NCBI GenBank assembly: GCA_049515535.1
Contig: JBEKTZ010000002.1
Location: 147,467 to 211,466 of the forward strand
Reading direction: 5' to 3'
DNA length: 64,000 bases
Source: Candidatus Aminicenantales bacterium
Lineage (GTDB): Bacteria > Acidobacteriota > Aminicenantia > Aminicenantales > UBA4085
Shown here: positions 40,309 through 64,000 of the stretch, piece after piece
Position numbering within the stretch: the stretch's first letter is position 1
Layout: the number at the start of each line of letters is the position of its first letter
Notes under the pieces: model-generated
Seen by the model: only the letters and a program-made list of their open reading frames with translations
Told to the model about the DNA's origin: nothing
Databases searched by the model: none
Position numbers and translations under genes: made by a program

Positions 40309-42984
40309 ATGATGATTCCGCCTCCTTTCGGCCTGGCCTGCGAAGCTTTACGAAATCCCGTCGGCATCGATGCGCGCCGCCCACGCTTGTCCTGGAAGCT
40401 CGAACACCGGGAGCGGGGCCAGACGCAGACGGCGGTCCGGATCATCGTCGGATCGAGCCCGGATTCCATGAAAAGCGGAGCCGATGTGATCTGGGACAGC
40501 GGCAAACGGCCGTCCGACGGATCGACCCACGTTCGCTACGCGGGACAGGCTCTGGAAAGCCGGAAGCGCTATTTCTGGAAGATCCGCTGGTGGGACAAAA
40601 AAGACAGGGCCGGCGATTTCAGCGAAGCCGCATTTTTCGAGATGGGCCTTCTCGATGACTCGGATTGGCGGGCGGACTGGATCAGCGCCGGGAATCCGCG
40701 CTTTTTCCGGACGCGGGGAACGGTCCTTTCGGGAAAATACCGGGGGGATTATATCCAGACCGAGGCGATGTATTTCGTCAAGGAATTCGAAGCTCAACCG
40801 GGCGTAATAAAAGCCCGAACCTATATCTGCGGCCTCGGCTTCTTTGAACTCGTCGTCAACGGCCGGAAAGTCGGCGACCATGTCCTCGATCCCGGCCAGA
40901 CCGATTATAAAAAAACCGCGCTTTATGTCACGCACGACATCACGGAACGCCTCGAGCGGCGGAATTCGGTCATCATCGTTCTGGGAAACGGCCGGCATAT
41001 CAAGAACTTCGGCTATGGACCGCCCAAGGCGATTTGCCAGATCGAGATCGAATATGAAAACGGCCGCCGGCAGGTCGTCGTCACGGACGAAACATGGCCG
41101 TCCGGCAGGGGTCCGATCCGGGAAAACGGGATCTATTTCGGCCAGATCCTTGACGCCCGACGAGAAAATTTCGAAAGGAACGGGAAGGCCGTTCGCGTTT
41201 CGGGCCCGCCTCTTTGCGCCCAAATGTGTCCGCCGATCCGAGTCGTCCAAAGGCTGCCCCCCCGAAGGATTTTCCGCCCTTCGTCCGGCGTTTTTATCTG
41301 CGATTTCGGCCAGAATTTCGCCGGATGGGTCAGGCTCCGGGCCAAGGGTCGGACCGGGACGAAAATCATTCTCAGGCACGCCGAGCTCTTGAACGGCGAT
41401 GGGACGCTGAACGCGTCGCCCAATCAGGGCGCTCGGGCCGAGGATATCTTCATTCTCAAAGGACGCGGCGTCGAAGCCCACGAGCCAAGATTCACTTACC
41501 ACGGTTTCCGCTACGTCGAGCTTTCAGGTTATCCGGGGACTCCCCGGCTGGAGGATATCGAAGGCTGCGTCGCGCATAGCGATGTCGAGCCGGACGGCGA
41601 ATTCCGATGCTCCCATCCCCTTTTCAACCGCATCCACCGCAATATCGTCTGGGGTCAGCGCTCGAACCTGATGAGCCTGCCCACGGATTGCCCGCAGAGG
41701 GACGAGCGGCACGGCTGGCTCGGCGATGCTCACCTCGCCGCCGAGGAAGCGATTTTCAATTTCGATATGGAATCTTTCTACGCGAAATTCCTGCGGGACA
41801 TCAGGAACGCCCAGGACAGACGAGGAAGAATTCCGGATTTCGTGCCGCCGTATGTCTCCGGTTTCAGCCCGGCCGATCCGGCCTGGGGCTCGGCCTACAT
41901 CACCCTGGCCTGGCTCCTTTACTGGCATTATGGAAATACGGATGTGCTGGCCGAGCATTTCGAGGGATTGAAAAAATATGTCGATTTTCTGGCCGAAAAC
42001 GCGGAAGGAGGCATCCTGAAAAACCTCGGCAAGTACGGCGATTGGTGCCCGCCGGGGAGCATCGTTCCGAAAAAAACGCCGCTCGAACTGACCTCGACCT
42101 GGTATTACTATCACGACACCCTGCTCCTGGCGAAGATCGCGGAGGTCTTGAACAGAACGGAGGACGCGAAAAAATACGCGAAATCAACGCTTCGCATCAA
42201 GGACGCGTTCAACAAGAAATTCCTCGAAGGCGATCAGTATGCCTCGATCCGCACCAGTCCCGTGGACAAGTACGTCTCTCAGACGTCCAACGTCCTTCCG
42301 CTCTATCTCCGGATGACCCCGGCCGGGAAAAAGGCGGCGGTCTTGCGAAGCCTTCTTCGCAGCATCATCGACGATTGGGATTATCACCTCGATACTGGGA
42401 TTCTCGGGACGCGTTATCTCTTGGAGGTGCTGAGCGACAACGGACGCGCCGACGTCGCCTATCGCATCGCGAGTCAAACCACTTACCCCGGCTGGGGATA
42501 TATGATCAAGGAAGGAGCGACCACGCTCTGGGAACGTTGGGAGAAAAACACGGGCGGCGGCATGAATTCGCATAACCACATCATGCTGGGGAGCATCGAT
42601 GCGTGGTTCTACAAGACCATCGCGGGAATCCGCTGCCTGGCCCCCGGCTGGAAGTCCATCCTGATCGCTCCTCCCGGATTGCCGGCCTTGGGTTCCGCGG
42701 AATGTTCTCTGCGAACGGTCCGCGGGCGGGCGGCCGTCCATTGGATAAGGCGGGACAACGATTACGTCCTTGACATCCGCATCCCCGTGGGCGCGGAAGC
42801 GGAAGTGCGCCTGCCTCTGCTCTGGAAGAAATCCCGGCTGACAGAGGGCGGAACCGTTCTTTGGCGGAACGGAAAATGTCATCAAAGGCCGGCCGAGATC
42901 AAATTCTCGAAGGCCAAATCCGATCGCCTTATTTTAAAAATTTTGAGCGGGACATATCGCTTCCGATTGGAAGAAAGCGATTAA
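40309..42984 (+). CDS. Alpha-L-rhamnosidase, GH78
   Basis: DFGQNFAGW, FTYHGFRY, PTDCPQRDERHGWLGD, YGDWC, GATTLWERW and SHNH motifs. Confidence 0.93.
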   Translation: MMIPPPFGLACEALRNPVGIDARRPRLSWKLEHRERGQTQTAVRIIVGSSPDSMKSGADVIWDSGKRPSDGSTHVRYAGQALESRKRYFWKIRWWDKKDRAGDFSEAAFFEMGLLDDSDWRADWISAGNPRFFRTRGTVLSGKYRGDYIQTEAMYFVKEFEAQPGVIKARTYICGLGFFELVVNGRKVGDHVLDPGQTDYKKTALYVTHDITERLERRNSVIIVLGNGRHIKNFGYGPPKAICQIEIEYENGRRQVVVTDETWPSGRGPIRENGIYFGQILDARRENFERNGKAVRVSGPPLCAQMCPPIRVVQRLPPRRIFRPSSGVFICDFGQNFAGWVRLRAKGRTGTKIILRHAELLNGDGTLNASPNQGARAEDIFILKGRGVEAHEPRFTYHGFRYVELSGYPGTPRLEDIEGCVAHSDVEPDGEFRCSHPLFNRIHRNIVWGQRSNLMSLPTDCPQRDERHGWLGDAHLAAEEAIFNFDMESFYAKFLRDIRNAQDRRGRIPDFVPPYVSGFSPADPAWGSAYITLAWLLYWHYGNTDVLAEHFEGLKKYVDFLAENAEGGILKNLGKYGDWCPPGSIVPKKTPLELTSTWYYYHDTLLLAKIAEVLNRTEDAKKYAKSTLRIKDAFNKKFLEGDQYASIRTSPVDKYVSQTSNVLPLYLRMTPAGKKAAVLRSLLRSIIDDWDYHLDTGILGTRYLLEVLSDNGRADVAYRIASQTTYPGWGYMIKEGATTLWERWEKNTGGGMNSHNHIMLGSIDAWFYKTIAGIRCLAPGWKSILIAPPGLPALGSAECSLRTVRGRAAVHWIRRDNDYVLDIRIPVGAEAEVRLPLLWKKSRLTEGGTVLWRNGKCHQRPAEIKFSKAKSDRLILKILSGTYRFRLEESD

Positions 42985-44381
42985 TACAGATACTTCTTGA
43001 ATAATTTCGCCGTCTCGGCATAGGCCTCTACCGTTTTCGTGATGTGCGTATCCTCGTGCGCCAGCGAAATGGCCCCGCCTCCGTGAACGACATGCACGTT
43101 CTCCGTCAAAAGGGCGATCTTCAGGATCTCTTCCTTGAGCCGGACATCCGAAAACCTGGGATTCCAAAGATCCTCGGCGCTCGAATAGGTGGTTTTCTTG
43201 AGGGGAAAATTGACCATGTAGAGCGAGCCGCCTCGGATGACCTCGTTGCCGTAGCCCGTGCAGCGAGCTTCAATGCCTTCGCAAAGGAAAACGTCCTCGA
43301 CGCTTTTCCGCAAAAGATCTCCGGATGCGACGAGCCGCGGATAGATCATGGCGGCGTGCTCAACCAGGTGCTTCAGCATGACGTATCCCGCCCGCATATA
43401 TTGAGGATGCGAGGAAAATGTACCGCCTTCGAATTGGACCCGAAGATATCCCGAAGCCTTGGACGGTTTCACGTCGAGGATCTCCGTTCGTCCGGCCACG
43501 GCGGAGACGGCGTGCCCGCCGCCGATGACCTTTCCGAACGTCGACAAATCGGGCTCGACTCCGTAGAGCTTTTGGACGCCGGAGGGACAGAACCGGAATC
43601 CCGAGACGATCTCATCGAAGATCAAGACGATGCCGTAGCGTTCGGTCAGACGCCGGGCCAGCTCGATGTATTCCTTGGATGCCGCCAAAAAACCGCCCAC
43701 CCCTAGAAACGGCTCCAGGATGAAACAGCCGATCTTATCCCTTTTTTTTTGGAGAATCCGTTCGAGGTCGTCCGGGTCGTCGAATCGGGTGATAAAAATG
43801 TCCCGGAGGATTTCCCGGGGCACGCCGGCCGATTCCGGGTGATTAAAACCGCGCTTTTCGTGAAATTTCACGCCTTTGAGAAGATAGGGCGAAGCGCCGT
43901 GCCATCCGCCCCCGATCTTCAAAATCCCCTGCCGACCGGTGGTGGCCTGGGCGAGCATGACCGCATACATCGTGGCCAGCGTCCCCGAAGTCGTAAAACG
44001 GACTTTGTAATCTTTGTGCCCGATCTGTTTGAGCAGCAGTTCGGCAAGCAGGACTTGGCTCTCCCCTTCGAAACCCGTATGCAGGGAGCCGGCCTCGGGA
44101 TCGAAACGCTCGAATTCCTTTTTCAGAACGGCCGGATTATGACCGAGGATATTGGCATAATGGCCCTGCCAGTAATCGATAAAGGCATTGCCGTCGACAT
44201 CATAAACATAAGGTCCTTTGGCCCTGGCCATGAAAAACGGATAAGGCGTCCAGAGACGGATGGAATGACTCCCTCCTCTGACCATGACGGCCTGAGCCCG
44301 TTCATGCAGCTTCCGGCTTTTTTTTGTCTTTTTTTTATAGCGTGTTTCGAGGACGTCAAGGAGTTTATTGATTTTTTTCAT
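42981..44381 (-). CDS. Class III PLP aminotransferase (glutamate-1-semialdehyde aminomutase-like)
   Basis: YDVDGNAFIDY, FTTSGT, GWHG, FDEIVSGFR, FGKVIGGG and GTFS motifs. Confidence 0.85.
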   Translation of the reverse strand: MKKINKLLDVLETRYKKKTKKSRKLHERAQAVMVRGGSHSIRLWTPYPFFMARAKGPYVYDVDGNAFIDYWQGHYANILGHNPAVLKKEFERFDPEAGSLHTGFEGESQVLLAELLLKQIGHKDYKVRFTTSGTLATMYAVMLAQATTGRQGILKIGGGWHGASPYLLKGVKFHEKRGFNHPESAGVPREILRDIFITRFDDPDDLERILQKKRDKIGCFILEPFLGVGGFLAASKEYIELARRLTERYGIVLIFDEIVSGFRFCPSGVQKLYGVEPDLSTFGKVIGGGHAVSAVAGRTEILDVKPSKASGYLRVQFEGGTFSSHPQYMRAGYVMLKHLVEHAAMIYPRLVASGDLLRKSVEDVFLCEGIEARCTGYGNEVIRGGSLYMVNFPLKKTTYSSAEDLWNPRFSDVRLKEEILKIALLTENVHVVHGGGAISLAHEDTHITKTVEAYAETAKLFKKYLY

Positions 44382-44562: not shown

Positions 44563-44590
44563 TTGACTTCACCCGGTTTGGTGCTATAAT
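44563..44590 (+). promoter_or_regulatory. Sigma70 promoter of the phosphodiesterase operon
   Basis: TTGACT-N16-TATAAT with an extended TG; only 10 nt separate the -10 from ATG 44601. Confidence 0.7.
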
Positions 44591-44600
44591 AGGCCAGTTT

Positions 44601-45896
44601 ATGTCTATCCTCAAGAAAAAAAAGCAAAACCGCGTCTGCGTTATCGGTCTGGACGGCGTGCCCCACGGCCTTCTCCTCGACCTGGCCAAGAAGGGTGTGA
44701 TGTCCTCTCTCGGCAGGATCATCGATTCCGGCCGTCTTCACAAGATGAAAGCCAGCCTTCCGGAAATCTCGGCCGTCAGTTGGACGGACTTCATGACCGG
44801 GACCAATTCCGGCACCCACGGCATTTTCGGCTTCACGGACCTGAAGCACGGCGCTTATGAGCTCCGCTTCCCCAATTTCCTGGACGTCAAAGTTCCGACG
44901 TTCTGGGATGTCCTGGGCGAGAGAGGCTTGAAAAGCATCATCATCAACCAGCCCTCGACATATCCGGCCCGCAAGATCAACGGCGTTCTTCTCTCGGGTT
45001 TTATCGCCGTGGAACTGGCCAAAGCCGTCTACCCCCCATCCTACAAGACCGAGCTGGAGCAGATCGGATATCAGATCGATATCGACACGCTCAAGTGCAG
45101 GGAAAACCCGAGCCTGCTCTGGCAGGAATTGATCAAGACGCTCATGGGCCGTCAAAGAGCCTTGAATTTTTTCTGGGAAGAGGAGTGGGAATATTTCGAA
45201 TTCGTCATCACCGGCACGGACCGGCTACATCATTTTCTCTGGAATGCTTATGAGAATCCCGATCATCCCCACCATCAGAATTTCCTCGAATACTACCGGC
45301 AGATCGACCGGCTGATCAATAAAATCTACGGTGCGTTCCGGAAGACCGCCGGCGATGAAGAAAATATCTTTTTTCTGTCCGATCACGGATTCACCGGCAT
45401 CAAACAGGAAGTCTATCTCAATGCCTGGCTCGAAAAAGAGAAATTTTTGAGATATTTCAATTCGATCCCCAAAGGGCTGGAGGACCTGTCCCCAAAGACC
45501 GTCGCCTTTGCTCTCGATCCCAATCGCATTTATCTGAACTACAAAGAAAAGTATCCCCAAGGCTCGGTCAAACACGGCGAGGCCAAGGCCATCAAGGAAG
45601 AAATCACCAGAAAGCTGGAAAAACTGGAATTCCAAGGAAAAAAAGTCGTCCGGAAGGTCTTCAACGCCAAGGATGTCTATAGTGGACCGCTCGTTTCGAA
45701 AGGCCCTGACCTGATCGTGCTCGGCGAACCGGGATTCGATATGAAAGGCTCGGTCAAGAAAAAAGAGATCTTCGGCCGCACACCCGGCCTTCACGGCATG
45801 CACACCTGGGACGACGCTTTCTTCCTGGCAAAAAACGACTTCGGAGACAAACTCGCGATTTCGGATATTTCGCGCATCATCATGGACCGCTACTGA
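44601..45896 (+). CDS. Alkaline-phosphatase-superfamily NPP-type phosphodiesterase 1 (no signal peptide)
   Basis: IGLDG, PEISAVSW, TDRLHH, SDHGF and GMH metal/nucleophile motifs. Confidence 0.88.
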   Translation: MSILKKKKQNRVCVIGLDGVPHGLLLDLAKKGVMSSLGRIIDSGRLHKMKASLPEISAVSWTDFMTGTNSGTHGIFGFTDLKHGAYELRFPNFLDVKVPTFWDVLGERGLKSIIINQPSTYPARKINGVLLSGFIAVELAKAVYPPSYKTELEQIGYQIDIDTLKCRENPSLLWQELIKTLMGRQRALNFFWEEEWEYFEFVITGTDRLHHFLWNAYENPDHPHHQNFLEYYRQIDRLINKIYGAFRKTAGDEENIFFLSDHGFTGIKQEVYLNAWLEKEKFLRYFNSIPKGLEDLSPKTVAFALDPNRIYLNYKEKYPQGSVKHGEAKAIKEEITRKLEKLEFQGKKVVRKVFNAKDVYSGPLVSKGPDLIVLGEPGFDMKGSVKKKEIFGRTPGLHGMHTWDDAFFLAKNDFGDKLAISDISRIIMDRY

Positions 45897-45904
45897 GGGC
45901 AGGC

Positions 45905-48118
45905 ATGGGCAGCTCCATCAAAGCGCGCTCTAAGATCGTCCTGGCTGCGCTTTTATGGCTTGGCGTGGGGTTGCCTCTCTTTGCCTATATCGGGCCGGGC
46001 GCCGGATTCGCTTTCCTGTCCTCGTTTCTCGTCCTGTTTCTGACATTTATCCTCGCCGTCTTTTCTTTTCTCTCCTGGCCGTTCCGCTTCTTTTTTCGCC
46101 TGATTCGAGGCGGCAAGGCCTACAAGAAAAGCCGCACGGACCAGGTCGTCATCATCGGCCTGGACGGTCTCGCGCCCGAATTGGCCGAGAAATTCATGGC
46201 CGAGGGCAAACTCCCCAATCTGGCAAAGCTGAAAAAAGAAGGCTTTTACGCCCGGCTCCAAACGACGACGCCGGCCATTTCTCCCGTCGCCTGGTCTTCC
46301 TTCATGACGGGTTCCAACCCTTCCAAACACAACATCTTCGATTTTTTGAGCAGGGACCCGAGGACATATCTGCCCGATCTGTCCTCCGCCCGCATCGGCC
46401 CCCCAAAAAAAACGCTTTCCATCGGCAAATATAAAATCCCGCTTTCCAAGGCCGAGATCCGGGGAATGCGAAAAAGCGTCCCATTTTGGAAGATCCTCGG
46501 AGACCATGGGATTTTCAGCACCATCCTGAGGGTGCCGATCACATTCCCGCCCGAGAAATTCAAAGGGCATTTGCTTTCCGGGATGTGCACGCCCGACCTC
46601 AAAGGCAGCCAGGGGACATTCTCCTTTTATACGTCCGACCCGGCCAAAATCCAGAAGCGCGAAGGCGGCATCGCGATTCCGATCGAGGTCAAAAACGATC
46701 GCGTGGAAACGTTCATTTCGGGTCCCGAAAATACCATGCTGAAGGAACCCAAGGAAATCCGCCTTCCCCTGACGATCGTGATCGACCGCCTGAAGGATGA
46801 AGCGCGGATCGAAACGGCGGGACGGAAACTCACGCTCAAGAAAAATGTCTTCTCGCCGTGGACAAGAATCACCTTCCGGCCGGGTCTGGGCTTCAAGATC
46901 AAATCCATATGCCGCTTCTATGTCTCCCAGATCTCGCCTCATTTTGAGATGTACGTCACTCCGCTCAACATCGATCCGGAAAAGCCCGCCCTGCCGATCT
47001 CCCATCCCTTCATCTATTCCGTGTATCTGGCCAAACTCCTGGGCAGCTTCATCACTCTGGGCGAAGCCAACGATACCTGGGCCTTGAACGAAAACGCGCT
47101 CAGTGAAAGCGCGTTTTTGGACTTGACCTATTCCAATCACAAGGAATGGGAAGGGATGTTGTTCAACGCCCTGGACAAGACAAAAAAGGGCCTTGTCGTC
47201 TGCGTCTTCGAGACGACGGACAGCATTTCCCACATGTTCTGGCGTTATCTGGACAAAGCCCATCCGGCCCTGAAAAAAGGGCCGTCTGCTTTGGGGCCTC
47301 AGGTCATCGAAGATCTCTTCGTCAAGATGGACGAAATGATCGGGCGCGTCAGGGAAAAAATGTCCGCCGAAAGCGCGCTTTTCATCATGTCCGATCACGG
47401 TTTCAAGTCGTTCCGCCGCGGCGTCAATGTGAACGCCTGGCTTCACAAAAACGGCTATCTGTTTTTGAAAGGCGAAAAAACCGAATCCGGGGAATGGTTC
47501 AAGGACGTGGATTGGAAAAGAACCAAGGCCTACGGCTTGGGACTGGGCGGATTGTATATCAATCAGAAGAACCGCGAGGCCGAGGGTATCGTCGACTCCG
47601 ATCAGGAGGCCAAAGCCCTGCGGGCCGAGCTTCTCCGGAGGCTCAGCGGTTTGAAAGACGAGCAAAATGGAGAGGTCGCGATCAACCGCGTCTATGACCG
47701 GGACGAAATCTATTCCGGCCCATATAAAGATAACGCGCCCGATCTGATCATCGGTTACAATGCCGGCTATCGGGCCTCTTGGGAAGGCGTCGCCGGGATC
47801 GTAAAAGACGCGATTTTCGAGGATAACGTCAAAGCCTGGAGCGGAGACCATTGTATCGACCCGCCGTGCGTTCCCGGCGTGCTTTTCTCGAGCCTCAAAC
47901 TGGGCGTCAAGGGACGAGCCTTCGCGGCGGAAATTGACCCGCGGGCAAAGCCCGGGGCCCCGTCCGCCGTCGAGACGCCTTCGATCATGGATATCGCCCC
48001 AACCGTGCTCGAGCTTTTCGGCCTTGAACCGCCGGCCCATATGGACGGCCGCTCGCTGCTCGAAAAAAAACTCCCGTCCGGATCCTCTCGGCCGCAAGAA
48101 AGAGAGAAGCCAAAGTGA
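45905..48118 (+). CDS. NPP-type phosphodiesterase 2, membrane anchored, with in-frame repeat insertion
   Basis: N-terminal hydrophobic segments; IGLDG, PAISPVAW, TDSISH, SDHGF and GDH motifs. Confidence 0.88.
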   Translation: MGSSIKARSKIVLAALLWLGVGLPLFAYIGPGAGFAFLSSFLVLFLTFILAVFSFLSWPFRFFFRLIRGGKAYKKSRTDQVVIIGLDGLAPELAEKFMAEGKLPNLAKLKKEGFYARLQTTTPAISPVAWSSFMTGSNPSKHNIFDFLSRDPRTYLPDLSSARIGPPKKTLSIGKYKIPLSKAEIRGMRKSVPFWKILGDHGIFSTILRVPITFPPEKFKGHLLSGMCTPDLKGSQGTFSFYTSDPAKIQKREGGIAIPIEVKNDRVETFISGPENTMLKEPKEIRLPLTIVIDRLKDEARIETAGRKLTLKKNVFSPWTRITFRPGLGFKIKSICRFYVSQISPHFEMYVTPLNIDPEKPALPISHPFIYSVYLAKLLGSFITLGEANDTWALNENALSESAFLDLTYSNHKEWEGMLFNALDKTKKGLVVCVFETTDSISHMFWRYLDKAHPALKKGPSALGPQVIEDLFVKMDEMIGRVREKMSAESALFIMSDHGFKSFRRGVNVNAWLHKNGYLFLKGEKTESGEWFKDVDWKRTKAYGLGLGGLYINQKNREAEGIVDSDQEAKALRAELLRRLSGLKDEQNGEVAINRVYDRDEIYSGPYKDNAPDLIIGYNAGYRASWEGVAGIVKDAIFEDNVKAWSGDHCIDPPCVPGVLFSSLKLGVKGRAFAAEIDPRAKPGAPSAVETPSIMDIAPTVLELFGLEPPAHMDGRSLLEKKLPSGSSRPQEREKPK
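47906..47974 (+). repeat. In-frame palindromic element, short copy (69 bp)
   Basis: 62/69 identical to the two flanking blocks of 63210-63103(-). Encodes VKGRAFAAEIDPRAKPGAPSAVE. Confidence 0.85.
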
Positions 48119-50112
48119 ACGATCCCATCAGCCGCCGGAATTTTCTCAAATCGAGCCTTGGCGCCGCTTCTCTTATGGCCATGGGACCCCGGCCTTCTTG
48201 GGTAACGAAAGCCTACGGCAAAAAGGCGACGGCCCGTAAAGTCGTCATTCTCGGCTTTGACGGTATGGATCCCCGTATGACCGGAGCCTGGATGAAAGAC
48301 GGAAAGCTTCCCGCTTTTCAAAAATTGATGGGCCAGGGAGGTTTCCGTCCGCTCGGGACGAGCATCCCGCCGCAGAGCCCCGTGGCCTGGTCGAACTTCA
48401 TTGCCGGCACGAACCCGGGCGGCCACGGGATTTTCGACTTCATCCACCGCGACGCGAAGCGCTACCTTCCCGTTTTCTCGGCGTCGGCCACCGAAGAGAC
48501 GACGAAGACGATCCGCATCGGAAATACGCTTTTCCCGGTCAAGGGAGGGACCGTCAAAAACCTGAGGAAAGGAAAAGCCTTTTGGCAGGTCCTCGAAGAA
48601 CACGACATTCCCGCGACGGTCTTTAAGATTCCGGCGAACTACCCGCCCGTTCCTTCGAAACAAAGGACGATTTCCGGAATGGGGACGCCGGACATCGTCG
48701 GCAGTTACGGCTTGTTCCGCTACTACACCACCGAGCCCAAGGATATTAAAGAGGACATCGGCGGGGGCGAGGTCCGCCAGGTCTATGTCATCAACCATCG
48801 GATCGAGGCCAAGCTTCCAGGGCCCGTCAATGCATTCAAGAAAGACCGCCCCGAAGCCGAGATCGATTTCAAGGTCTTCATCGATCCGCAGAATCCCGTG
48901 GCCAAGATCGTCATCCAGGACCAGGAATTCATCCTCCGCGAAAAAGAGTGGAGCGGGTGGAAACGCGTCCGTTTCCATCTCATCCCGACCCAGGGCGTGA
49001 GCGGCATCTGCCTTTTTTATCTCAAAGAGGTCCGGCCGAATTTCAAGCTCTATATTTCTCCGATCAATATCGATCCGGGCGATCCGGCCCTGCCCATATC
49101 GACGCCGGCCTCCTATGCCGAAGAACTCGCCGGAAAATTCGGGCCCTTTTTCACGAAAGGCCTTCCGGCCGATACCAGCGCCCTCGATAACGATGTCCTG
49201 GACGAGGGGGAATTTCTCCAGCAGGACGATGTTGTCCTTCAAGAAAGCCGGACCATGCTGGATTATGAGCTCGCCCGTTTCGATTCCGGTTTGCTCTTCT
49301 ATTACATATCGAGCACGGACCAGCGCCAGCACATGTTCTGGCGCCTTTTGGACGACAAGCATCCGTTGCATGACGCCGCATTGGCCAAAAAATACGGAAG
49401 CGTGATCGAGGACACATACCGGGAGGCGGACCAGATCCTTGATCATGTCATGGGAAAAGTCGGCAAGGACGCGCTCATTCTGGTCATGTCCGACCATGGG
49501 TTCAATCCATTTTACCGGAGCTTCAACCTCAATACATGGCTTCGCCAAAACGGCTATTTGAAGCTCGCTAACGAGTTCAAAGAAGAAGACCTGGATCTGG
49601 CTTTCGCCGGAACCGATTGGTCCAGGACCAAAGCCTTCGGCGTGGGATTGAACGGCCTTTACATCAATCAGAAGGGCCGGGAGGCTGAGGGCATCGTTCC
49701 GGCCGGCCGCGAAAAAGAGAGCCTCGTCCGCGAAATCGCGGCGAAACTCGAAGAATTCGTTGATCCTAAAACGGGCGATAAGATCATCCGGAGGGCCTAC
49801 GTGGCTCAAGACGTTTATTCGGGGCCTTATGTCGACGAGGCACCGGAAATCATCCTCGGCTTCAACCGCGGCTATCGCATTTCCAATAAGTCGCCCCTGG
49901 GCCGCGTCCCAAGGGAGGTGGTCGAGGACAATCGGGCCAAATGGAGCGGAGACCACATGGGGGCCGCTGAGATCCTGCCCGGCATCCTGCTGGCCAACCA
50001 GCCGATCAAGGCCGAAGCGCCGGCGCTCACCGACCTGACGGCAACGATCATGGATGTCTTCGGCATCGAAAAACCGAAAGCCATGATCGGGACGACCATC
50101 TTCAAGGAGTGA
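48115..50112 (+). CDS. NPP-type phosphodiesterase 3, Tat-exported
   Basis: GTG start; SRRNFLK twin-arginine signal; GFDG, PPQSPVAW, TDQRQH, SDHGF and GDH motifs. Confidence 0.88.
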   Translation: MNDPISRRNFLKSSLGAASLMAMGPRPSWVTKAYGKKATARKVVILGFDGMDPRMTGAWMKDGKLPAFQKLMGQGGFRPLGTSIPPQSPVAWSNFIAGTNPGGHGIFDFIHRDAKRYLPVFSASATEETTKTIRIGNTLFPVKGGTVKNLRKGKAFWQVLEEHDIPATVFKIPANYPPVPSKQRTISGMGTPDIVGSYGLFRYYTTEPKDIKEDIGGGEVRQVYVINHRIEAKLPGPVNAFKKDRPEAEIDFKVFIDPQNPVAKIVIQDQEFILREKEWSGWKRVRFHLIPTQGVSGICLFYLKEVRPNFKLYISPINIDPGDPALPISTPASYAEELAGKFGPFFTKGLPADTSALDNDVLDEGEFLQQDDVVLQESRTMLDYELARFDSGLLFYYISSTDQRQHMFWRLLDDKHPLHDAALAKKYGSVIEDTYREADQILDHVMGKVGKDALILVMSDHGFNPFYRSFNLNTWLRQNGYLKLANEFKEEDLDLAFAGTDWSRTKAFGVGLNGLYINQKGREAEGIVPAGREKESLVREIAAKLEEFVDPKTGDKIIRRAYVAQDVYSGPYVDEAPEIILGFNRGYRISNKSPLGRVPREVVEDNRAKWSGDHMGAAEILPGILLANQPIKAEAPALTDLTATIMDVFGIEKPKAMIGTTIFKE

Positions 50113-50115
50113 ACC

Positions 50116-50307
50116 ATGGGCCAAGAGAAGATCAAGCTCGACAAAATCCTTTTGGACAAAGTGCGCAAATACGCGGGGCTCGCGGGGTATTCGTCCGCCG
50201 AGGAATTCATCGCCCATTGCCTCGAGAGAGAAATGGCCAAGCTCGAAGACACCGACTCCGAGGATGAAATCAGGAAAAAGTTGAAGGGGTTGGGATATCT
50301 CTCGTAA
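50116..50307 (+). CDS. Small RHH/CopG-like protein with C-terminal LKGLGYL motif
   Basis: AGGAG RBS; KIKLDKILLDKVRKYAGLAGYSSAEEFIAHCLERE; translationally coupled (TAATG) to the next gene. Confidence 0.7.
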   Translation: MGQEKIKLDKILLDKVRKYAGLAGYSSAEEFIAHCLEREMAKLEDTDSEDEIRKKLKGLGYLS

Positions 50308-51134
50308 TGGGCATTTTCAATCTCGCCTTCGGCAAGATCTTCGATGTCATTTTTTTTCCTTTTCGCGCGCTCGATCCGTGGGCGGCGATGATCGCCGTTT
50401 CGTTCCTGACGGGACTTCTGATGCTTTTCGTTTTCCACCGCGCCTCGAACCAGGAGGGAATCCGAGGGGCGAAAGACAAGATCAAAGCCCACCTCCTCGA
50501 ACTGCAGCTCTATAAGGACAGCCTGGCCCAGCAGCTCAATTCCCAGGGCAAGATCCTGCGGGCCAATTTTCGATATATCGGCTACGCCCTCAAACCCATG
50601 CTGATCACGATCGTGCCCGTCATGCTCATTCTCATTCAGCTCAATCTCTGGTTCGGATCACGGCCGCTTGATATCGGCCAGACGGCTCTCGTCAAGATCA
50701 AGCTGACGTCGCGCGCGAATCCGCTTCAAACCGACATTCGGTTGGAAACGCCTGCCGGCGTCGCTGTCGAAACGCCGGCCCTCCGGATCGAGGACGAACG
50801 GGAAATCGACTGGCGCGTCCGCGCCGTAGAGAACGGCGTCCATGTCCTCACCTTTCGCTTCGGCGAGGCCGTATTCACGAAAGTCCTGTCCGTCGGCCAA
50901 GGCCGCCTTTCCCGGATCGCCGCCGTTAAGCCGGGTCCCGCTTTTTGGAGCCAGGTTTTCAACCCCGGCGAAAAGCCGCTGCAGAAAGGCGCGCCGATCG
51001 AATCCGTGGAAATCGCCTATCCTCCCCTGAGATTGAGCTTGTTCGGTTGGCGCATGCACTGGCTCGTCGCCTATTTCGCTTTATCCATCGCCTTCGGCTT
51101 CGCCTTCAAAGGCGTATTCAAAGTCGAGATCTGA
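50307..51134 (+). CDS. DUF106/EMC3-TMCO1-like membrane protein with inserted soluble domain
   Basis: TM1, then basic coiled coil, then LKPMLITIVP TM2; terminal FGWRMHWLVAYFALS TM3. Confidence 0.55.
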   Translation: MGIFNLAFGKIFDVIFFPFRALDPWAAMIAVSFLTGLLMLFVFHRASNQEGIRGAKDKIKAHLLELQLYKDSLAQQLNSQGKILRANFRYIGYALKPMLITIVPVMLILIQLNLWFGSRPLDIGQTALVKIKLTSRANPLQTDIRLETPAGVAVETPALRIEDEREIDWRVRAVENGVHVLTFRFGEAVFTKVLSVGQGRLSRIAAVKPGPAFWSQVFNPGEKPLQKGAPIESVEIAYPPLRLSLFGWRMHWLVAYFALSIAFGFAFKGVFKVEI

Positions 51135-51145
51135 AAGGCCTCCCC

Positions 51146-52258
51146 ATGAACATCGAAACCTTCAAGCTCGAGCGATTTCAATCCACCTGGGAAAACATCG
51201 TGAAATACAACCTGGCCGAAAGCGGCGTCCATCCGCTGTCGCTCCATGATTTCGTCGGGAAAAAGGAACTCGAAAAGCTCCTCTCCCTGGAAATCGGCTA
51301 CAGCCAGACCAACGGGACTCCCGGGCTGCGAAAAGCCATCGCCGCCTTCTATCCCGGGATCGCTCCGGACGCGATCCAGGTGACGGCCGGCTCCACGGAA
51401 GCCAATTTCCTTCTCATGTGGCGCCTTATCGAGCCCGGCGACGAAATCGTCTTCGAGGTTCCCAATTACATGCAGATGTGGGGCCTCCTCCGCGGATTCG
51501 GGGCCAAAGTCAAGACGTTCCGCCTCCGGGAGGAAAAAGGCTGGAAGCCCGATCTGGACGAGCTTGGGCGGGCCGTGACAAAAAAGACCAAGCTCATCAT
51601 ACTGACCAATCCGAATAACCCGACGGGAGCCGTGCTGAGCCGGGAAGAGATGGACGAGATCATCAGAATCGCCCGGAAAGCCGGCGCTTGGATCCTGGCC
51701 GACGAAGTCTATCAAGGCGCCGAGCGGATCGGCGGGCGGACGCCGAGTTTTTGGAAACGCTACGATCGATCCATCTGCGTCAACGGCATGTCCAAGGCCT
51801 TCGGCCTGGCGGGACTGAGAATCGGCTGGATCGCCGCTCCCCTGTCCATGATCCGGAGCCTCTGGCCGTACCACGATTACACGACGATATCGCCCAGCGT
51901 TCTGAGCGATGCGCTGGCCCGCATCGCCCTTTCCCCGGTCCATCGCGACCGGATCCTCCGAAGAACGAGGACCATCCTGACGGAAAACTTCGCCGTGCTT
52001 GGATCCTGGCTCAAGACGTTTAGCGGGGTCTTCCGATGCGTCCCTCCGAGAGCGGGAGCCGTGGCCTTTGTCCACTACGATCTCAAGATCAATTCCACGA
52101 AGCTCGCCGAAAAAATCATCCGCGAGCAAAGCGTGTTCTTGGCTCCGGGCGACCTTTTCGAGATGGACCATTTTCTGCGCATCGGGTTCGGCGCGGAAAA
52201 AGAAAGACTGATCGAAGCGCTGGGCCTCATGAAAAAATCGATCGCGCGACTCCGCTAA
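51146..52258 (+). CDS. Class I/II PLP aminotransferase
   Basis: NPNNPTG, ADEVY and GMSKAFGLAGLRIGW motifs. Confidence 0.92.
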   Translation: MNIETFKLERFQSTWENIVKYNLAESGVHPLSLHDFVGKKELEKLLSLEIGYSQTNGTPGLRKAIAAFYPGIAPDAIQVTAGSTEANFLLMWRLIEPGDEIVFEVPNYMQMWGLLRGFGAKVKTFRLREEKGWKPDLDELGRAVTKKTKLIILTNPNNPTGAVLSREEMDEIIRIARKAGAWILADEVYQGAERIGGRTPSFWKRYDRSICVNGMSKAFGLAGLRIGWIAAPLSMIRSLWPYHDYTTISPSVLSDALARIALSPVHRDRILRRTRTILTENFAVLGSWLKTFSGVFRCVPPRAGAVAFVHYDLKINSTKLAEKIIREQSVFLAPGDLFEMDHFLRIGFGAEKERLIEALGLMKKSIARLR

Positions 52259-62415: not shown

Positions 62416-64000
62416 CTAAGATTTACGAGATTTCATCAATAAAGTTCCAGCCGGCCGGCCCTCGCCGTGGACAAGCGCCCGGTAAGTCTTCTCGATCCGG
62501 TCCCATTTCTCTTCGCGATCGAGCGACCAGTATCGCCCGATGACGGTCGCGACCTCGCCGATGCCGAGCGCCCGGCACGTTTCCTCCACCTTTTCGACAT
62601 AGATCGCGCCGCTCTCGGGCATTTCTCCGCGCCGTCCTATGAAGCCATGGACGTGGACCTTGGTCAAGCCCGCGTCTTTGGCGAGCTTGAGAAGGGCGAA
62701 AAGGTGCCTGATCGTGCCGTGAGAGCTGTAATGGGAAATGATGCCCATAAGATGAAGAGCCCGATGCTCCCGCTTGGCTTTATCCATGACGCCGAGGAAG
62801 GCCTCATTGCGGAAAAAACTCCCGTCCTCGACGGCCTTGTCGATCCGGACGCGATCGAGAAGGACGCGGCGTCCCGCCCCCAAATGAAGGTGGCCGGCTT
62901 CGGAATTCCCGACGGTTCCCGCGGGCAAGCCGACGGCCTCTCCCGAAGCTTGAAGCAGGGACCGGGGGAATCGGGACCATAGGTCGTCGAAGTGCGGCGT
63001 CCTGGATTGCGCGATCAAATTACCGCTTTGAACCGCGCTCATCCCCCATCCGTCCAGAATGAGCACGACGACTTTTTTCCGGATCGGCGCGTGACGAGGC
63101 CGCTCGACAGCGGCTGGGGCCCCGGGCTTTGTCCGGGGGTCCACTTCCGCCGTACTCGCCCGTGGATATAAGCCACAGGCGAGTGGCGAGCCGAAGGCTC
63201 GTCCCTTGACGAAGAGGCTATGTCCCGTCATTTCTGGGGGTTTCGGGATGTCCAGGAGATCGAGAATCGTCGGAGCGACATCGGCCAGTTCGCCGGATTC
63301 GCGCAAATTCGGGTAGGCCGGCTTTCCGGACGCATCATCGGAGAAAATGAACGGCACGGGATTTTTTGTGTGTCCCGTATTGATCGTTCCGTCCTGATAC
63401 TCCCATTCTTCGACCGTCCCGTGATCGGCAGTGACGATCAGAGCGACCGCTCGCCGCCGCGCTTCCTCGATGACGCGCCCCAATTCCTTGTCCACGGTTT
63501 CAACCGCGCGAATGGCCGCTTCTTTGTTTTCGATATGGCCGACGACGTCGACGTTGGCGAAATTGGCCATGACGACATCGAAGCGAGGGTCGCCGATTTT
63601 ATCGATGACGGCGTCCGCCACGGCCGCGGCGCTCATTTCAGGCCTTTGATCGTAGTTGGAAACGTCCTGGGGAGAAGGAACGATCACCCGTTCCTCTCCC
63701 GGAAAAACGGCATCGGACTTGCCGTTCATGAAAAATCCGATATGGGTCGCCTTCTCGGACTCCGCGATCTTGGCCAGACGAAGCCCAGCCTTGGAAAGAA
63801 CTTCGGCCAACGTGTTCTTGATCTTAACGTCCGCGGGGAAGGCGACGCGGACGCGCAGTTTGGGATCGTATTCGATCATGGTCACAAAGTCGAGATCCAG
63901 ACTTTTTTCGACCGGAAAATGAGAAAAGGCCGGATCGATCAGGCATTGGGTGATCTCGATCTCGCGCTCGCCCCGAATGTCGTAAAAAATGACGGAGTCG
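62416..64000 (-). CDS. gpmI: 2,3-bisphosphoglycerate-independent phosphoglycerate mutase, domain-permuted, 5'-truncated
   Basis: Frame is open to the window edge (DSVIFYDIRGER...). Native C-half motifs (ESEK, ANVDVVGH, ADHG, GHT, LADVAPT) precede native N-half motifs (LILDGWG, GNSEAGH, GRYW). Confidence 0.85.
   Translation of the reverse strand, partial: DSVIFYDIRGEREIEITQCLIDPAFSHFPVEKSLDLDFVTMIEYDPKLRVRVAFPADVKIKNTLAEVLSKAGLRLAKIAESEKATHIGFFMNGKSDAVFPGEERVIVPSPQDVSNYDQRPEMSAAAVADAVIDKIGDPRFDVVMANFANVDVVGHIENKEAAIRAVETVDKELGRVIEEARRRAVALIVTADHGTVEEWEYQDGTINTGHTKNPVPFIFSDDASGKPAYPNLRESGELADVAPTILDLLDIPKPPEMTGHSLFVKGRAFGSPLACGLYPRASTAEVDPRTKPGAPAAVERPRHAPIRKKVVVLILDGWGMSAVQSGNLIAQSRTPHFDDLWSRFPRSLLQASGEAVGLPAGTVGNSEAGHLHLGAGRRVLLDRVRIDKAVEDGSFFRNEAFLGVMDKAKREHRALHLMGIISHYSSHGTIRHLFALLKLAKDAGLTKVHVHGFIGRRGEMPESGAIYVEKVEETCRALGIGEVATVIGRYWSLDREEKWDRIEKTYRALVHGEGRPAGTLLMKSRKS
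63103..63210 (-). repeat. In-frame palindromic element, long copy (108 bp, three hairpins)
   Basis: CGAGCC-TTC-GGCTCG, ACTCGCCTGTGG-N7-CCACGGGCGAGT and CCCCGGAC-AAA-GCCCGGGG. Encodes VKGRAFGSPLACGLYPRASTAEVDPRTKPGAPAAVE. Confidence 0.85.

What the first reader, a model, noticed from the sequence alone, without database searches (positions are those of the whole stretch)
44601..52258. Operon of three differently localised Ser-nucleophile NPP enzymes with accessory genes and flanking aminotransferases
Seen: six tightly packed genes (gaps of 11 bp or less, or overlaps). The three AP-superfamily paralogs have full metal ligands and differ in targeting: no signal, membrane anchor, and Tat signal. 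All three carry Ser at the nucleophile position (EISAVSW, AISPVAW, PQSPVAW), where classical NPPs use Thr. They are followed by an RHH-like protein, a DUF106-like membrane protein and a class I/II aminotransferase, with a class III aminotransferase divergent. Inference: an uncharacterised trans-envelope pathway that makes or removes phospho-/phosphono- or sulfo-ester substituents on an amino-containing substrate, possibly as a heteromeric complex.
Basis: partly seen in the sequence, partly recalled or inferred. Interest (0 to 1): 0.62.

Follow-up and report, generated by a model that had tools for sequence, protein, structure and literature searches.

The report
Two-sided phosphatase-fold operon tied to sulfation
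This operon of an uncultured peat bacterium is the membrane half of a widespread, unstudied gene system: phosphatase-fold enzymes on both faces of the inner membrane, an archaeal-type membrane insertase and a small tailed protein, all travelling with the genes that make activated sulfate, so it probably adds or handles sulfate on a cell-envelope glycan.

Summary
Five genes (npp1, npp2, npp3, a 63-aa RHH-like protein and a DUF106/Ylp1-like membrane protein) are packed with gaps of 8 nt or less, or overlaps. They keep this order in every Aminicenantes locus with enough flank: 68/70, 64/64, 63/63 and 57/57.

The two aminotransferases are variable neighbours (28/50 and 20/60) and are not part of the unit.

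All three enzymes keep the six AP-superfamily metal ligands, carry Ser at the nucleophile position, and have Phe where canonical NPPs have the oxyanion Asn. npp2's catalytic domain is predicted to face the cytoplasm; npp3 is a Tat substrate.

The new point is context:
- npp1 sits inside a large Ser clade whose other branches lie next to, or are fused with, CysDN or Sat/APS kinase.
- In other Acidobacteriota classes the same module is contiguous with those genes, for example RHH-Sat-APSK-npp1-npp2-npp3-RHH.
- This genome has a second operon, RHH-sat-npp4-cysC-uronate epimerase-UDP-glucose dehydrogenase, but no PAPS reductase and no canonical sulfotransferase.

Best reading (confidence about 0.5): a two-sided AP-fold system that uses activated sulfate on a membrane-linked acidic glycan. 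The chemistry is inferred, not shown.

The parts
44563..44590 (+). Promoter-like site (TTGACT, 16 nt, TG-TATAAT) ending 10 nt before the npp1 ATG. It would give a nearly leaderless operon mRNA.
   Evidence: 11 of 12 consensus matches. The count of such sites in the region is no higher than in shuffles, so this is only suggestive.
44601..45896 (+). npp1: 431-aa soluble AP-superfamily enzyme (PF01663) with a Ser57 nucleophile. It belongs to the short Ser clade that is linked to sulfate activation in other phyla.
   Evidence: AF2 model pLDDT 95.6. The nearest solved folds are PhnA and NPPs, at TM about 0.6 and 10-16% identity. Tree placement. Genomic contexts.
45905..48118 (+). npp2: 737-aa long-form paralogue. 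Its N-terminus is like phage M13 procoat: a signal-peptide-like segment, AxA then Y(I/V)GPGAG, a transmembrane helix, and a block of 7 Lys/Arg. It has an all-beta insert of about 200 aa in the catalytic domain. The catalytic domain is predicted to lie on the cytoplasmic face.
   Evidence: AF2 model pLDDT 89.5, with helices 3-28 and 33-74 and beta strands 163-351.
47906..47974 (+). Strain-specific in-frame insert of 21-23 codons in npp2. It is absent from all orthologues compared and is modelled as disordered.
Evidence: alignment gap in 20 orthologues. (residues 670-689, pLDDT below 50).
48115..50112 (+). npp3: 665-aa long-form paralogue with a twin-arginine signal (SRRNFLK). Predicted to be periplasmic.
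   Evidence: RR(D/E/N)F(I/L/M)K is present in all 19 orthologues listed. TatC is present in the genome.
50116..50307 (+). rhh: 63-aa ribbon-helix-helix-like protein with an acidic linker and a C-terminal ...IRKKLKGLGYLS tail. The tail motif is shared with CysD, APS kinases and some AP-fold enzymes.
   Evidence: Only 4 of 39,189 ORFs in this genome end in the motif.
50307..51134 (+). memb: 275-aa bacterial homologue of archaeal Ylp1 (DUF106, Oxa1 superfamily). Layout is TM1, a basic cytoplasmic coiled coil, TM2, a periplasmic domain of about 130 aa, then TM3.
   Evidence: Profile hit to MJ0480 (5c8j) at E 1.8e-9. PF01956 is hit by 22 of 31 orthologues, below the cut-off. JGI names. Hit to an archaeal SecY-adjacent DUF106 at E 3e-37. 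Charge distribution.
51146..52258 (+). AT12: class I/II PLP aminotransferase (PRK07324-like). A variable downstream neighbour, not part of the conserved unit.
   Evidence: Adjacent in 28 of 50 Aminicenantes loci and absent from the module in other classes.
42981..44381 (-). AT3: class III aminotransferase (HemL-like, below the cut-off). A variable divergent neighbour, not part of the conserved unit.
   Evidence: Adjacent in 20 of 60 loci.

Best explanation
The window holds the membrane half of a sulfate-activation-coupled system that Aminicenantes keep at two loci.

The second locus (G000 contig C2, 357135-360511 and onward, outside the window) encodes RHH, ATP sulfurylase, a Thr-nucleophile paralogue (npp4), APS kinase, a uronate 4-epimerase and UDP-glucose 6-dehydrogenase. 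It supplies PAPS and uronic-acid sugar nucleotides.

The proposed steps in the window operon are:
1. npp1 (soluble) and npp2 (tethered to the cytoplasmic face) are binuclear-metal, Ser-nucleophile AP-fold enzymes. They take a group from the activated-sulfate nucleotide through a covalent Ser intermediate and pass it to a membrane-linked acceptor. The group is most likely sulfuryl, and the acceptor most likely a lipid-linked acidic glycan.
2. The Ylp1/DUF106-like protein inserts and holds npp2's procoat-like hairpin. It may also help the intermediate cross the membrane.
3. npp3, exported already folded by the Tat pathway, does the matching transfer or trimming in the periplasm.
4. The RHH protein uses its CysD-like LGY tail as a docking or feedback element.

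Shown here: gene structure, active-site conservation, synteny, linkage to sulfate activation, and the absence of other PAPS consumers.

Inferred: topology, the group that is transferred, the acceptor, and the roles of the DUF106 protein, the RHH protein and the tail.
For: 1. Invariant five-gene synteny in Aminicenantes: npp1 68/70, npp3 64/64, rhh 63/63, memb 57/57.

2. The DUF106-like gene is in 88 of 301 genomes sampled across the phylum. In 18 of 18 fetched loci it sits with an LGY-tailed RHH and a long-form enzyme. In 14 of 18 it sits with both a hairpin npp2 and an npp3.

3. Direct same-strand contiguity with sulfate activation in other classes:
- L229: RHH-Sat-APSK-npp1-npp2-npp3-RHH, with gaps of -22 to +25 nt
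- L215: CysD-CysN-npp1-npp2-npp3-RHH-DUF106
- L216 and L232: similar arrangements

4. npp1 nests (support 100/99) in a short Ser clade whose other sampled branches are Sat/APSK-, CysDN- or PHP-linked. CysD-CysN follow the homologue in 26 of 46 loci. One homologue is fused to a CysD/PAPS_reduct domain.

5. The own genome has sat and cysC scoring above the NCBIfam cut-offs. It has no PF01507 and no Sulfotransfer_1, _2, _3 or _4.

6. APS kinase is present in 82 of 88 module-positive genomes and 106 of 213 module-negative ones (odds ratio 13.8, p 3e-14).

7. The PAPS operon runs on into a uronate epimerase and UDP-glucose dehydrogenase here and in 9 of 9 other Aminicenantes genomes.

8. Published precedent: the AP-superfamily proteins Agl30 (membrane) and Agl31 (soluble) sulfate hexuronic acids of a lipid-linked N-glycan (PMC11980604).

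9. npp2's N-terminus is the kind of small-loop hairpin that Oxa1-family insertases handle (PMC5868721).
Against: - No member of this PF01663 Ser clade has been assayed. No curated family or close solved structure exists.
- Periplasmic npp3 has no access to PAPS, so it needs a different donor or is a hydrolase.
- Long-form homologues in other phyla are mostly solitary Sec-exported enzymes with no DUF106, RHH or sulfate genes nearby. That pattern fits ordinary secreted hydrolases.
- Agl30 and Agl31 belong to the sulfatase-fold branch, not PF01663. That paper reports no donor and no in-vitro data.
- NPP-type enzymes normally attack phosphorus. With APS or PAPS that would release sulfate, not transfer it.
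- The genome is a 94%-complete MAG, so the absences are soft. The Sulfotransfer_2 search had no positive control.
- APS kinase is also present in half of the module-negative genomes, and the association is not corrected for phylogeny.
Confidence: 0.5

Rival explanations
1. The enzymes are helpers of sulfate activation, not transferases. They would hydrolyse pyrophosphate, the by-product PAP, or excess APS/PAPS, which pulls or tunes the ATP sulfurylase and APS kinase reactions.
For: - Position between or beside Sat, CysDN and APSK, and fusion to a CysD-like domain.
- PHP and DHH phosphoesterases, families that include known PAP phosphatases, are frequent neighbours.
- The short clade has invariant basic residues (R208, R309, K382) that suit a polyanionic nucleotide.
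Against: - It does not explain a membrane-tethered paralogue, a Tat-exported paralogue, a dedicated DUF106 partner, or four paralogues in one genome.
- PAPS would still have no consumer in this genome.
- R208 and K382 are not kept in npp2 and npp3.
Confidence: 0.15
2. An envelope phospho-group system, working like LtaS, EptA or OpgB. The enzymes would move or remove phospho-alcohol head groups (or phosphodiester-linked substituents) on lipids or glycans on both faces of the membrane. The link to sulfate genes would reflect only a shared target polymer.
For: - The nearest folds are phosphodiesterases and phosphonate hydrolases.
- Periplasmic AP-superfamily transferases that use lipid donors are well established (textbook knowledge of EptA and LtaS).
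- Most module loci (13 of 18) have no sulfate gene within 9 kb.
Against: - Repeated tight same-strand coupling and fusion to CysDN or Sat/APSK.
- The LGY tail shared with CysD and APS kinase.
- The strong co-occurrence with APS kinase.
- The canonical NPP oxyanion Asn is replaced by Phe in all paralogues.
Confidence: 0.15
3. Three independent generic phosphodiesterases or nucleotide pyrophosphatases for phosphate scavenging, clustered by tandem duplication.
For: - PF01663 membership and complete metal ligands.
- Solitary Sec-exported long-form homologues are common in other phyla.
Against: - Two of the three face the cytoplasm.
- Order and translational coupling are invariant across a whole class, and the four-gene core with RHH and DUF106 is kept across the phylum.
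- No Pho-regulon genes lie nearby.
- Paralogues are only 25-39% identical, so the duplications are ancient and the copies have specialised.
Confidence: 0.08
4. One reading: the enzymes act together with the two flanking aminotransferases on an amino-containing substrate.
For: - An 11-nt gap between memb and AT12 in this genome.
- AT12 is adjacent in 28 of 50 Aminicenantes loci and AT3 in 20 of 60.
Against: - Neither aminotransferase is found in the module outside Aminicenantes, nor beside the Ser-clade homologues of other phyla beyond weak 25-27% hits.
- Both score below every curated family cut-off.
Confidence: 0.05

Closest known systems
Agl30 (VNG1056C) and Agl31 (VNG1057C), N-glycan sulfotransferases of Halobacterium salinarum (PMC11980604)
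   Same: AP-superfamily proteins acting as sulfotransferases. One is membrane-associated and one soluble, both on the cytoplasmic side, and both act on hexuronic acids of a lipid-linked glycan. Here too there is a soluble plus a membrane-tethered pair, and the PAPS operon carries uronic-acid sugar-nucleotide genes.
   Different: Agl30 and Agl31 are sulfatase-fold (their best structural matches are GAG and ulvan sulfatases), not PF01663. They have no Tat-exported paralogue, no DUF106 partner and no RHH-LGY protein. The sequence relationship was not tested here, and their donor and mechanism are not established in the paper.
Nucleotide pyrophosphatase/phosphodiesterases (Xanthomonas NPP 2gsn/7n1s, ENPP1-7) and phosphonoacetate hydrolase PhnA (1ei6, 3szy)
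   Same: PF01663 membership, the AP fold, six metal ligands and the nucleophile position. These are the best structural matches.
   Different: Only 10-16% identity and TM about 0.6. Ser replaces Thr as nucleophile. Phe replaces the oxyanion Asn (Asn111 in Xanthomonas NPP). Two of the three enzymes are cytoplasmic. npp2 and npp3 carry a 200-aa beta insert. The genomic coupling is to sulfate activation, not to nucleotide or phosphonate metabolism.
Archaeal Ylp1/MJ0480 (DUF106) and eukaryotic EMC3, TMCO1 and GET1, the Oxa1 superfamily (PMC5868721)
   Same: [quoted passage not shown] Significant profile match to MJ0480, and to an archaeal DUF106 encoded next to secY.
   Different: It is bacterial, whereas the literature read describes the family as archaeal and eukaryotic. 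It carries a periplasmic domain of about 130 aa between TM2 and TM3. It is encoded in an enzyme operon, not beside the general secretion genes.
Canonical PAPS pathway cassettes (Sat or CysDN, CysC, P-loop sulfotransferase, PAP phosphatase) in glycan loci
   Same: Sat and CysC operon joined to sugar-nucleotide genes.
   Different: No P-loop sulfotransferase and no PAPS reductase in the genome. AP-fold enzymes occupy the place where the consumer would be expected.
RHH antitoxins and NikR-type RHH regulators
   Same: An N-terminal ribbon-helix-helix followed by a flexible C-terminal partner-binding segment (sequence pattern; weak NikR hit for rhh2).
   Different: The tail is the CysD-type ...RLKxLGY(L/M/I) motif, shared with APS kinases and AP-fold enzymes. 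There is no toxin partner. DNA binding is untested.

Membership tests
PF01663 (type I phosphodiesterase / nucleotide pyrophosphatase), AP superfamily | Pfam model scored above the gathering cut-off | tested here: met
   112.4, 116.5 and 105.9 bits against a cut-off of 23.
PF01663 / AP superfamily | Six ligands for the binuclear metal site (Asp; Asp and His; Asp and His; His) | tested here: met
   D18, D207, H211, D261, H262 and H401 are invariant in the three paralogues and in 60 relatives.
Canonical NPP (Xanthomonas NPP, ENPP1-7) | Thr nucleophile | tested here: not met
   Ser57 aligns with Thr90 of Xanthomonas NPP. Ser is kept across the whole short and long clades. Only the Sat-linked paralogue npp4 has Thr.
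Canonical NPP | Asn that hydrogen-bonds the transferred phosphoryl group (Asn111 in Xanthomonas NPP, the HGIxxN motif) | tested here: not met
   The motif reads HGIFGF, HNIFDF and HGIFDF. Phe78 is nearly invariant.
Type I sulfatases (formylglycine enzymes) | (C/S)-x-(P/A)-x-R maturation motif at the nucleophile | tested here: not met
   The sequences are S-A-V-S-W, S-P-V-A-W and S-P-V-A-W, with Trp where Arg is required. PF00884 is not hit.
AP-fold sulfotransferases (Agl30/Agl31 type) | Loss of the gene abolishes sulfation; heterologous expression confers it | not testable with these tools
   Only context is available: coupling to Sat/CysC/CysDN, and no other PAPS consumer.
AP-fold sulfotransferases (Agl30/Agl31 type) | Sequence or fold relationship to Agl30/Agl31 (sulfatase-like branch) | not tested
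The paper places them nearest to GAG and ulvan sulfatases, whereas npp1 and npp2 are nearest to PhnA and NPPs.
DUF106 / Ylp1 / EMC3-TMCO1 (PF01956, Oxa1 superfamily) | Pfam model scored above the gathering cut-off | tested here: not met
   The window protein scores 13 bits against a cut-off of 27.1. 22 of 31 orthologues hit at E below 1, best 1.5e-5.
DUF106 / Ylp1 | Profile-level homology to a solved or bona fide archaeal member | tested here: met
   MJ0480 (5c8j) at E 1.8e-9 over TM1, coiled coil and TM2. An archaeal SecY-adjacent DUF106 at E 3e-37 over residues 8-273.
DUF106 / Ylp1 | [quoted passage not shown] | tested here: met
   Hydrophobic segments at 22-47, 90-118 and 252-271. Residues 45-96 carry 10 Lys/Arg against 4 Asp/Glu.
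Tat substrates | S/T-R-R-x-F-L-K motif followed by a hydrophobic region, and Tat machinery in the genome | tested here: met
   SRRNFLK followed by SSLGAASLMAMG. The RR motif is in all 19 orthologues listed. TatC scores 232.8 bits. The Pfam TAT_signal score is 20.4, just under the 22.7 cut-off.
Ribbon-helix-helix (CopG/Arc/MetJ) | Significant match to an RHH model | tested here: inconclusive
   No Pfam or NCBIfam hit for the window protein. JGI names homologues CopG/Arc/MetJ. The paralogue rhh2 hits the NikR N-terminus at E 7e-4.
Single operon | Same strand, short gaps or overlaps, conserved order | tested here: met
   Gaps of +8, -4, +3 and -1 nt. Order is invariant in 57-68 loci. No transcript data could be found.

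The most novel reading that the evidence does not exclude
PF01663-type, Ser-nucleophile AP-fold enzymes are an unrecognised class of bacterial sulfotransferases that work on both faces of the inner membrane. The cytoplasmic members (npp1, npp2) would take sulfate from APS or PAPS as a covalent sulfo-Ser intermediate and load a membrane-linked carrier or glycan. A bacterial Ylp1/DUF106 protein would insert the npp2 hairpin and help the loaded intermediate cross. The Tat-exported member (npp3) would then use that intermediate to sulfate envelope polymers in the periplasm, where no PAPS exists. The CysD-like LGY tails would dock the sulfate-activating enzymes and the RHH protein onto the AP-fold enzymes for channelling and feedback.
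Probability: 0.2. Interest if true: 0.9.

Novelty: new variant of a known kind. Interest (0 to 1): 0.7.

Why it matters
If the reading holds, four things follow:
- A large, uncharacterised clade of "phosphodiesterase" annotations (at least 1,592 cluster representatives at E below 1e-30) would belong to sulfur metabolism and envelope sulfation.
- It would explain why many anaerobes make PAPS without any known consumer.
- It would extend to bacteria, and to a different AP branch, the recent archaeal finding that AP-fold proteins can be sulfotransferases.
- It would give the first functional context for a bacterial member of the Ylp1/EMC3 insertase lineage, which the literature read here treats as archaeal and eukaryotic.

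It also makes a concrete biochemical question testable with one soluble protein, npp1 or a CysDN-linked homologue.

Tried and rejected
- **Direct look-ups gave nothing.** A phmmer search of npp1 and npp4 against PDB sequences found no match. NCBIfam has no family for any of the four paralogues.
- **Literature.** Searches for AP-superfamily enzymes linked to sulfate adenylyltransferase, and for Aminicenantes sulfation, found no description of this system.
- **Expression.** No RNA sequencing run holds the operon, so co-transcription is untested.
- **DUF106 and RHH beside long-form homologues in other phyla.** I found 0 hits in 57 loci. The four-gene module is therefore not a general property of long-form enzymes. 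It was found instead by searching from the DUF106 gene.
- **An argument I retracted.** I first planned to argue that the clade lacks conserved basic residues and so cannot bind polyanions. One search shows invariant R208, R309 and K382 in the short clade.
- **Sulfatase reading.** Rejected because the formylglycine motif is absent.
- **Aminotransferase-coupled pathway.** Rejected on the synteny counts.
- **Model coordinates.** They could not be read in the Python box, so active-site geometry and the position of the conserved basic residues were not examined.
- **Insert fold.** The fold search with the npp2 model returned only the catalytic core, so the beta insert remains unassigned.
Full report
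**What is in the window**

The stretch 44601-52258 holds six same-strand genes:
- npp1, 44601-45896, 431 aa
- npp2, 45905-48118, 737 aa
- npp3, 48115-50112, 665 aa
- a 63-aa protein (rhh), 50116-50307
- a 275-aa membrane protein (memb), 50307-51134
- a class I/II aminotransferase (AT12), 51146-52258

The spacings are +8, -4, +3, -1 and +11 nt. A class III aminotransferase (AT3, 42981-44381) is divergent, across a 219-nt spacer. That spacer holds a near-consensus promoter-like site ending 10 nt before the npp1 start. Record titles of close relatives place the organism in Candidatus Aminicenantes (GTDB phylum Acidobacteriota). The DNA is found mainly in peat and groundwater metagenomes.

**The three enzymes**

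All three match PF01663 far above the cut-off. They share D18, S57, D207, H211, D261, H262 and H401 in npp1 numbering. That is the full AP-superfamily binuclear-metal set plus the nucleophile.

A 60-sequence profile aligns Ser57 on Thr90 of Xanthomonas NPP. It also puts a nearly invariant Phe where NPPs have the oxyanion Asn. The formylglycine motif of sulfatases is absent.

High-confidence AlphaFold models were obtained: npp1 at pLDDT 95.6 and npp2 at 89.5. Their nearest solved folds are phosphonoacetate hydrolase and NPPs, at TM about 0.6 and 10-16% identity. No curated NCBIfam family covers them. So they belong to PF01663 but are not canonical NPPs.

**Localisation**

- npp1 has no hydrophobic segment.
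- npp3 carries SRRNFLK. Every orthologue examined has RR(D/E/N)F(I/L/M)K, and the genome encodes TatC.
- npp2 begins with a signal-peptide-like segment ending in AxA. The nearly invariant Y(I/V)GPGAGFAFLSSF follows, then a second hydrophobic helix, then 7 Lys/Arg in 22 residues.

By the positive-inside rule, this procoat-like hairpin leaves the npp2 catalytic domain in the cytoplasm. The three locations are therefore cytosol, cytoplasmic face of the membrane, and periplasm. This is inferred from sequence, not shown.

npp2 and npp3 share an all-beta insert of about 200 aa. The window's npp2 also carries a strain-specific 21-23 codon insert that is modelled as disordered.

**The accessory proteins**

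A profile of the membrane protein hits MJ0480 (Ylp1, PDB 5c8j) at E 1.8e-9. It also hits an archaeal DUF106 encoded next to secY at E 3e-37. Pfam PF01956 is hit only below its cut-off.

The protein has the Oxa1-superfamily layout: TM1, a basic coiled coil, TM2 and TM3. An extra domain of about 130 aa sits in the extracytoplasmic loop. The literature I read describes DUF106 as archaeal and eukaryotic.

The 63-aa protein has an RHH-like N-terminus, although the database support for that is weak. It ends in ...IRKKLKGLGYLS.

**Conservation**

Among 80 Aminicenantes loci the five-gene order is invariant wherever the contig allows: npp1 68/70, npp3 64/64, rhh 63/63, memb 57/57. AT12 is adjacent in 28/50 and AT3 in 20/60. 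The aminotransferases are lineage-variable neighbours.

The DUF106-like gene occurs in 88 of 301 genomes sampled evenly across the phylum, most of them outside the class. In 18 of 18 such loci it lies beside an LGY-tailed RHH gene and a long-form enzyme. In 14 of 18 it lies beside both a hairpin-type npp2 and an npp3. The core unit is therefore npp2-npp3-RHH-DUF106, and npp1 is a frequent addition.

By contrast, long-form homologues retrieved from other phyla by similarity to an Ignavibacterium protein are mostly solitary Sec-exported enzymes without these partners.

**The link to sulfate activation**

I reached this link before consulting earlier notes. A library-wide search shows that npp1 belongs to a large clade, with 1,592 representatives at E below 1e-30. 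The contexts of distant members repeatedly contain sulfate-activating genes:
- ATP sulfurylase and APS kinase
- CysD-CysN directly downstream in 26 of 46 loci of one clade spanning Thermodesulfobacteriota, Nitrospirota, Nitrospinota and Aquificota
- a natural fusion of an npp1-like domain to a CysD/PAPS_reduct domain inside a nonulosonic-acid glycan cluster

A maximum-likelihood tree places the Aminicenantes npp1 group (support 100/99) inside this clade. Its sister is a homologue that follows an LGY-tailed APS kinase.

In other classes of the same phylum the window's module is physically joined to these genes:
- RHH-Sat-APSK-npp1-npp2-npp3-RHH, with gaps of -22 to +25 nt (L229)
- CysD-CysN-npp1-npp2-npp3-RHH-DUF106 (L215)
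- two further arrays (L216, L232)

APS kinase is present in 82 of 88 module-positive genomes and in 106 of 213 module-negative ones (odds ratio 13.8, p 3e-14). This figure is not corrected for phylogeny.

**The second locus in this genome**

About 146 kb downstream on the same contig, the genome carries the following:
- RHH (ending ...RLKALGYID)
- ATP sulfurylase
- npp4, a Thr-nucleophile paralogue
- APS kinase (ending ...LKERGYLD)
- a TviC-like uronate 4-epimerase
- UDP-glucose 6-dehydrogenase

The same order is found in 9 of 9 other Aminicenantes genomes examined. APS kinase is in 39 of 41 relatives.

The genome, 94% complete, has no PAPS_reduct family member and no Sulfotransfer_1, _2, _3 or _4. 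PAPS therefore has no recognisable consumer.

Only four of 39,189 ORFs in the genome end in the LGY motif: the two RHH proteins, APS kinase, and an exported sulfatase-like protein. Elsewhere the same tail ends CysD, APS kinases, a CysH-like protein and several AP-fold enzymes.

**Interpretation**

The simplest account that covers all of this is that the window operon is the membrane half of a sulfate-activation-coupled system.

There is published precedent. AP-superfamily proteins act as sulfotransferases in Halobacterium salinarum, where membrane-associated Agl30 and soluble Agl31 sulfate hexuronic acids of a lipid-linked N-glycan (PMC11980604). The soluble plus membrane-tethered pair here, and the uronic-acid genes in the PAPS operon, echo that case.

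I therefore propose the following:
- npp1 and npp2 use a covalent Ser intermediate to pass a group, most likely sulfuryl, from APS or PAPS to a membrane-linked acidic glycan.
- The Ylp1-like protein inserts npp2's small-loop hairpin, which is the substrate type Oxa1-family insertases handle. It may also help translocation.
- Tat-exported npp3 carries out a matching transfer or trimming step outside.
- The LGY tails dock the partners together.

Only the anatomy, the conservation and the context are shown. The chemistry, the acceptor, the topology and the tail function are inferences. I put about 0.7 on "belongs to a sulfation pathway in some role" and about 0.5 on the mechanism as stated.

**Caveats and rivals**

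- No member of the clade has been assayed.
- Agl30 and Agl31 are sulfatase-fold, not PF01663, and their donor is unknown.
- NPP-type enzymes usually attack phosphorus.
- The periplasmic paralogue cannot see PAPS.
- Solitary exported homologues look like ordinary hydrolases.
- Absences in a MAG are soft.

Helper roles (PPi, PAP or APS/PAPS hydrolysis) fit the cytosolic members, and fit the invariant basic residues R208, R309 and K382 of the short clade. They do not explain the membrane module. A phospho-group transfer system remains possible. Generic phosphate scavenging and the aminotransferase-coupled pathway are unlikely.

**Verdict**

The feature is a real, deeply conserved and undescribed module built from known superfamilies. 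I rate it a new variant of a known kind, with interest 0.7.

Noticed in passing
window 47906-47974: npp2 carries a 21-23 codon in-frame insert (…GVKGRAFAAEIDPRAKPGAPSAV…). It is absent from all 20 orthologues compared and is modelled at pLDDT below 50.
   Followed up: partly
window 44563-44601: A near-consensus extended -10 promoter (TTGACT, 16 nt, TG-TATAAT) ends 10 nt before the npp1 ATG. This implies a leaderless or almost leaderless operon transcript.
   Followed up: no
L098 4862-10508 (G000 contig C2, 354862-360508, outside the window): A second operon on the minus strand: RHH(LGYID)-sat-npp4(Thr)-cysC(RGYLD)-uronate 4-epimerase-UDP-glucose 6-dehydrogenase. It is conserved in 9 of 9 other Aminicenantes genomes, and most of those carry an extra NDP-sugar dehydrogenase paralogue.
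   Followed up: yes
window 62416-64000; L095 4489-6045; L232 10215-11783: The circularly permuted iPGM-like gene noted by an earlier report recurs inside or next to the sulfate and AP-fold modules of unrelated genomes (52-58% identity). It may belong to the same system and not to glycolysis.
   Followed up: partly
G000 contig C7, 51508-53280 (minus strand): An exported sulfatase-fold protein of about 540 aa (in a 590-aa stop-to-stop frame) with a Thr nucleophile (PITLPSH), no formylglycine motif, and the same ...EDMLRSLGYIK tail. It is the only other tailed protein in the genome.
   Followed up: no
L149 8001-10124: A natural fusion of an npp1-like Ser enzyme to a CysD/PAPS_reduct domain ending ...LRTLGYM. 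It lies inside a NeuB and CMP-sugar (nonulosonic acid) glycan cluster with a second LGY-tailed PF01663 gene.
   Followed up: partly
L151 7376-7891: A 171-aa protein between two PF01663 genes downstream of Sat. It looks like a degenerate P-loop kinase and ends ...QQRLEQLGYL. It may be an inactive APS-kinase-like adaptor.
   Followed up: no
window 42981-44381 and 51146-52258: The best named NCBIfam matches of the two aminotransferases include the guanitoxin enzymes GntE and GntC (and VioD). All are well below the cut-offs, so this is family-level resemblance only.
   Followed up: no
L234 7875-10040: In a DPANN-labelled archaeal genome (28% GC), the DUF106 gene that matches the bacterial profile lies directly after secY in the ribosomal-protein cluster. 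This is a useful positive control for the homology.
   Followed up: yes
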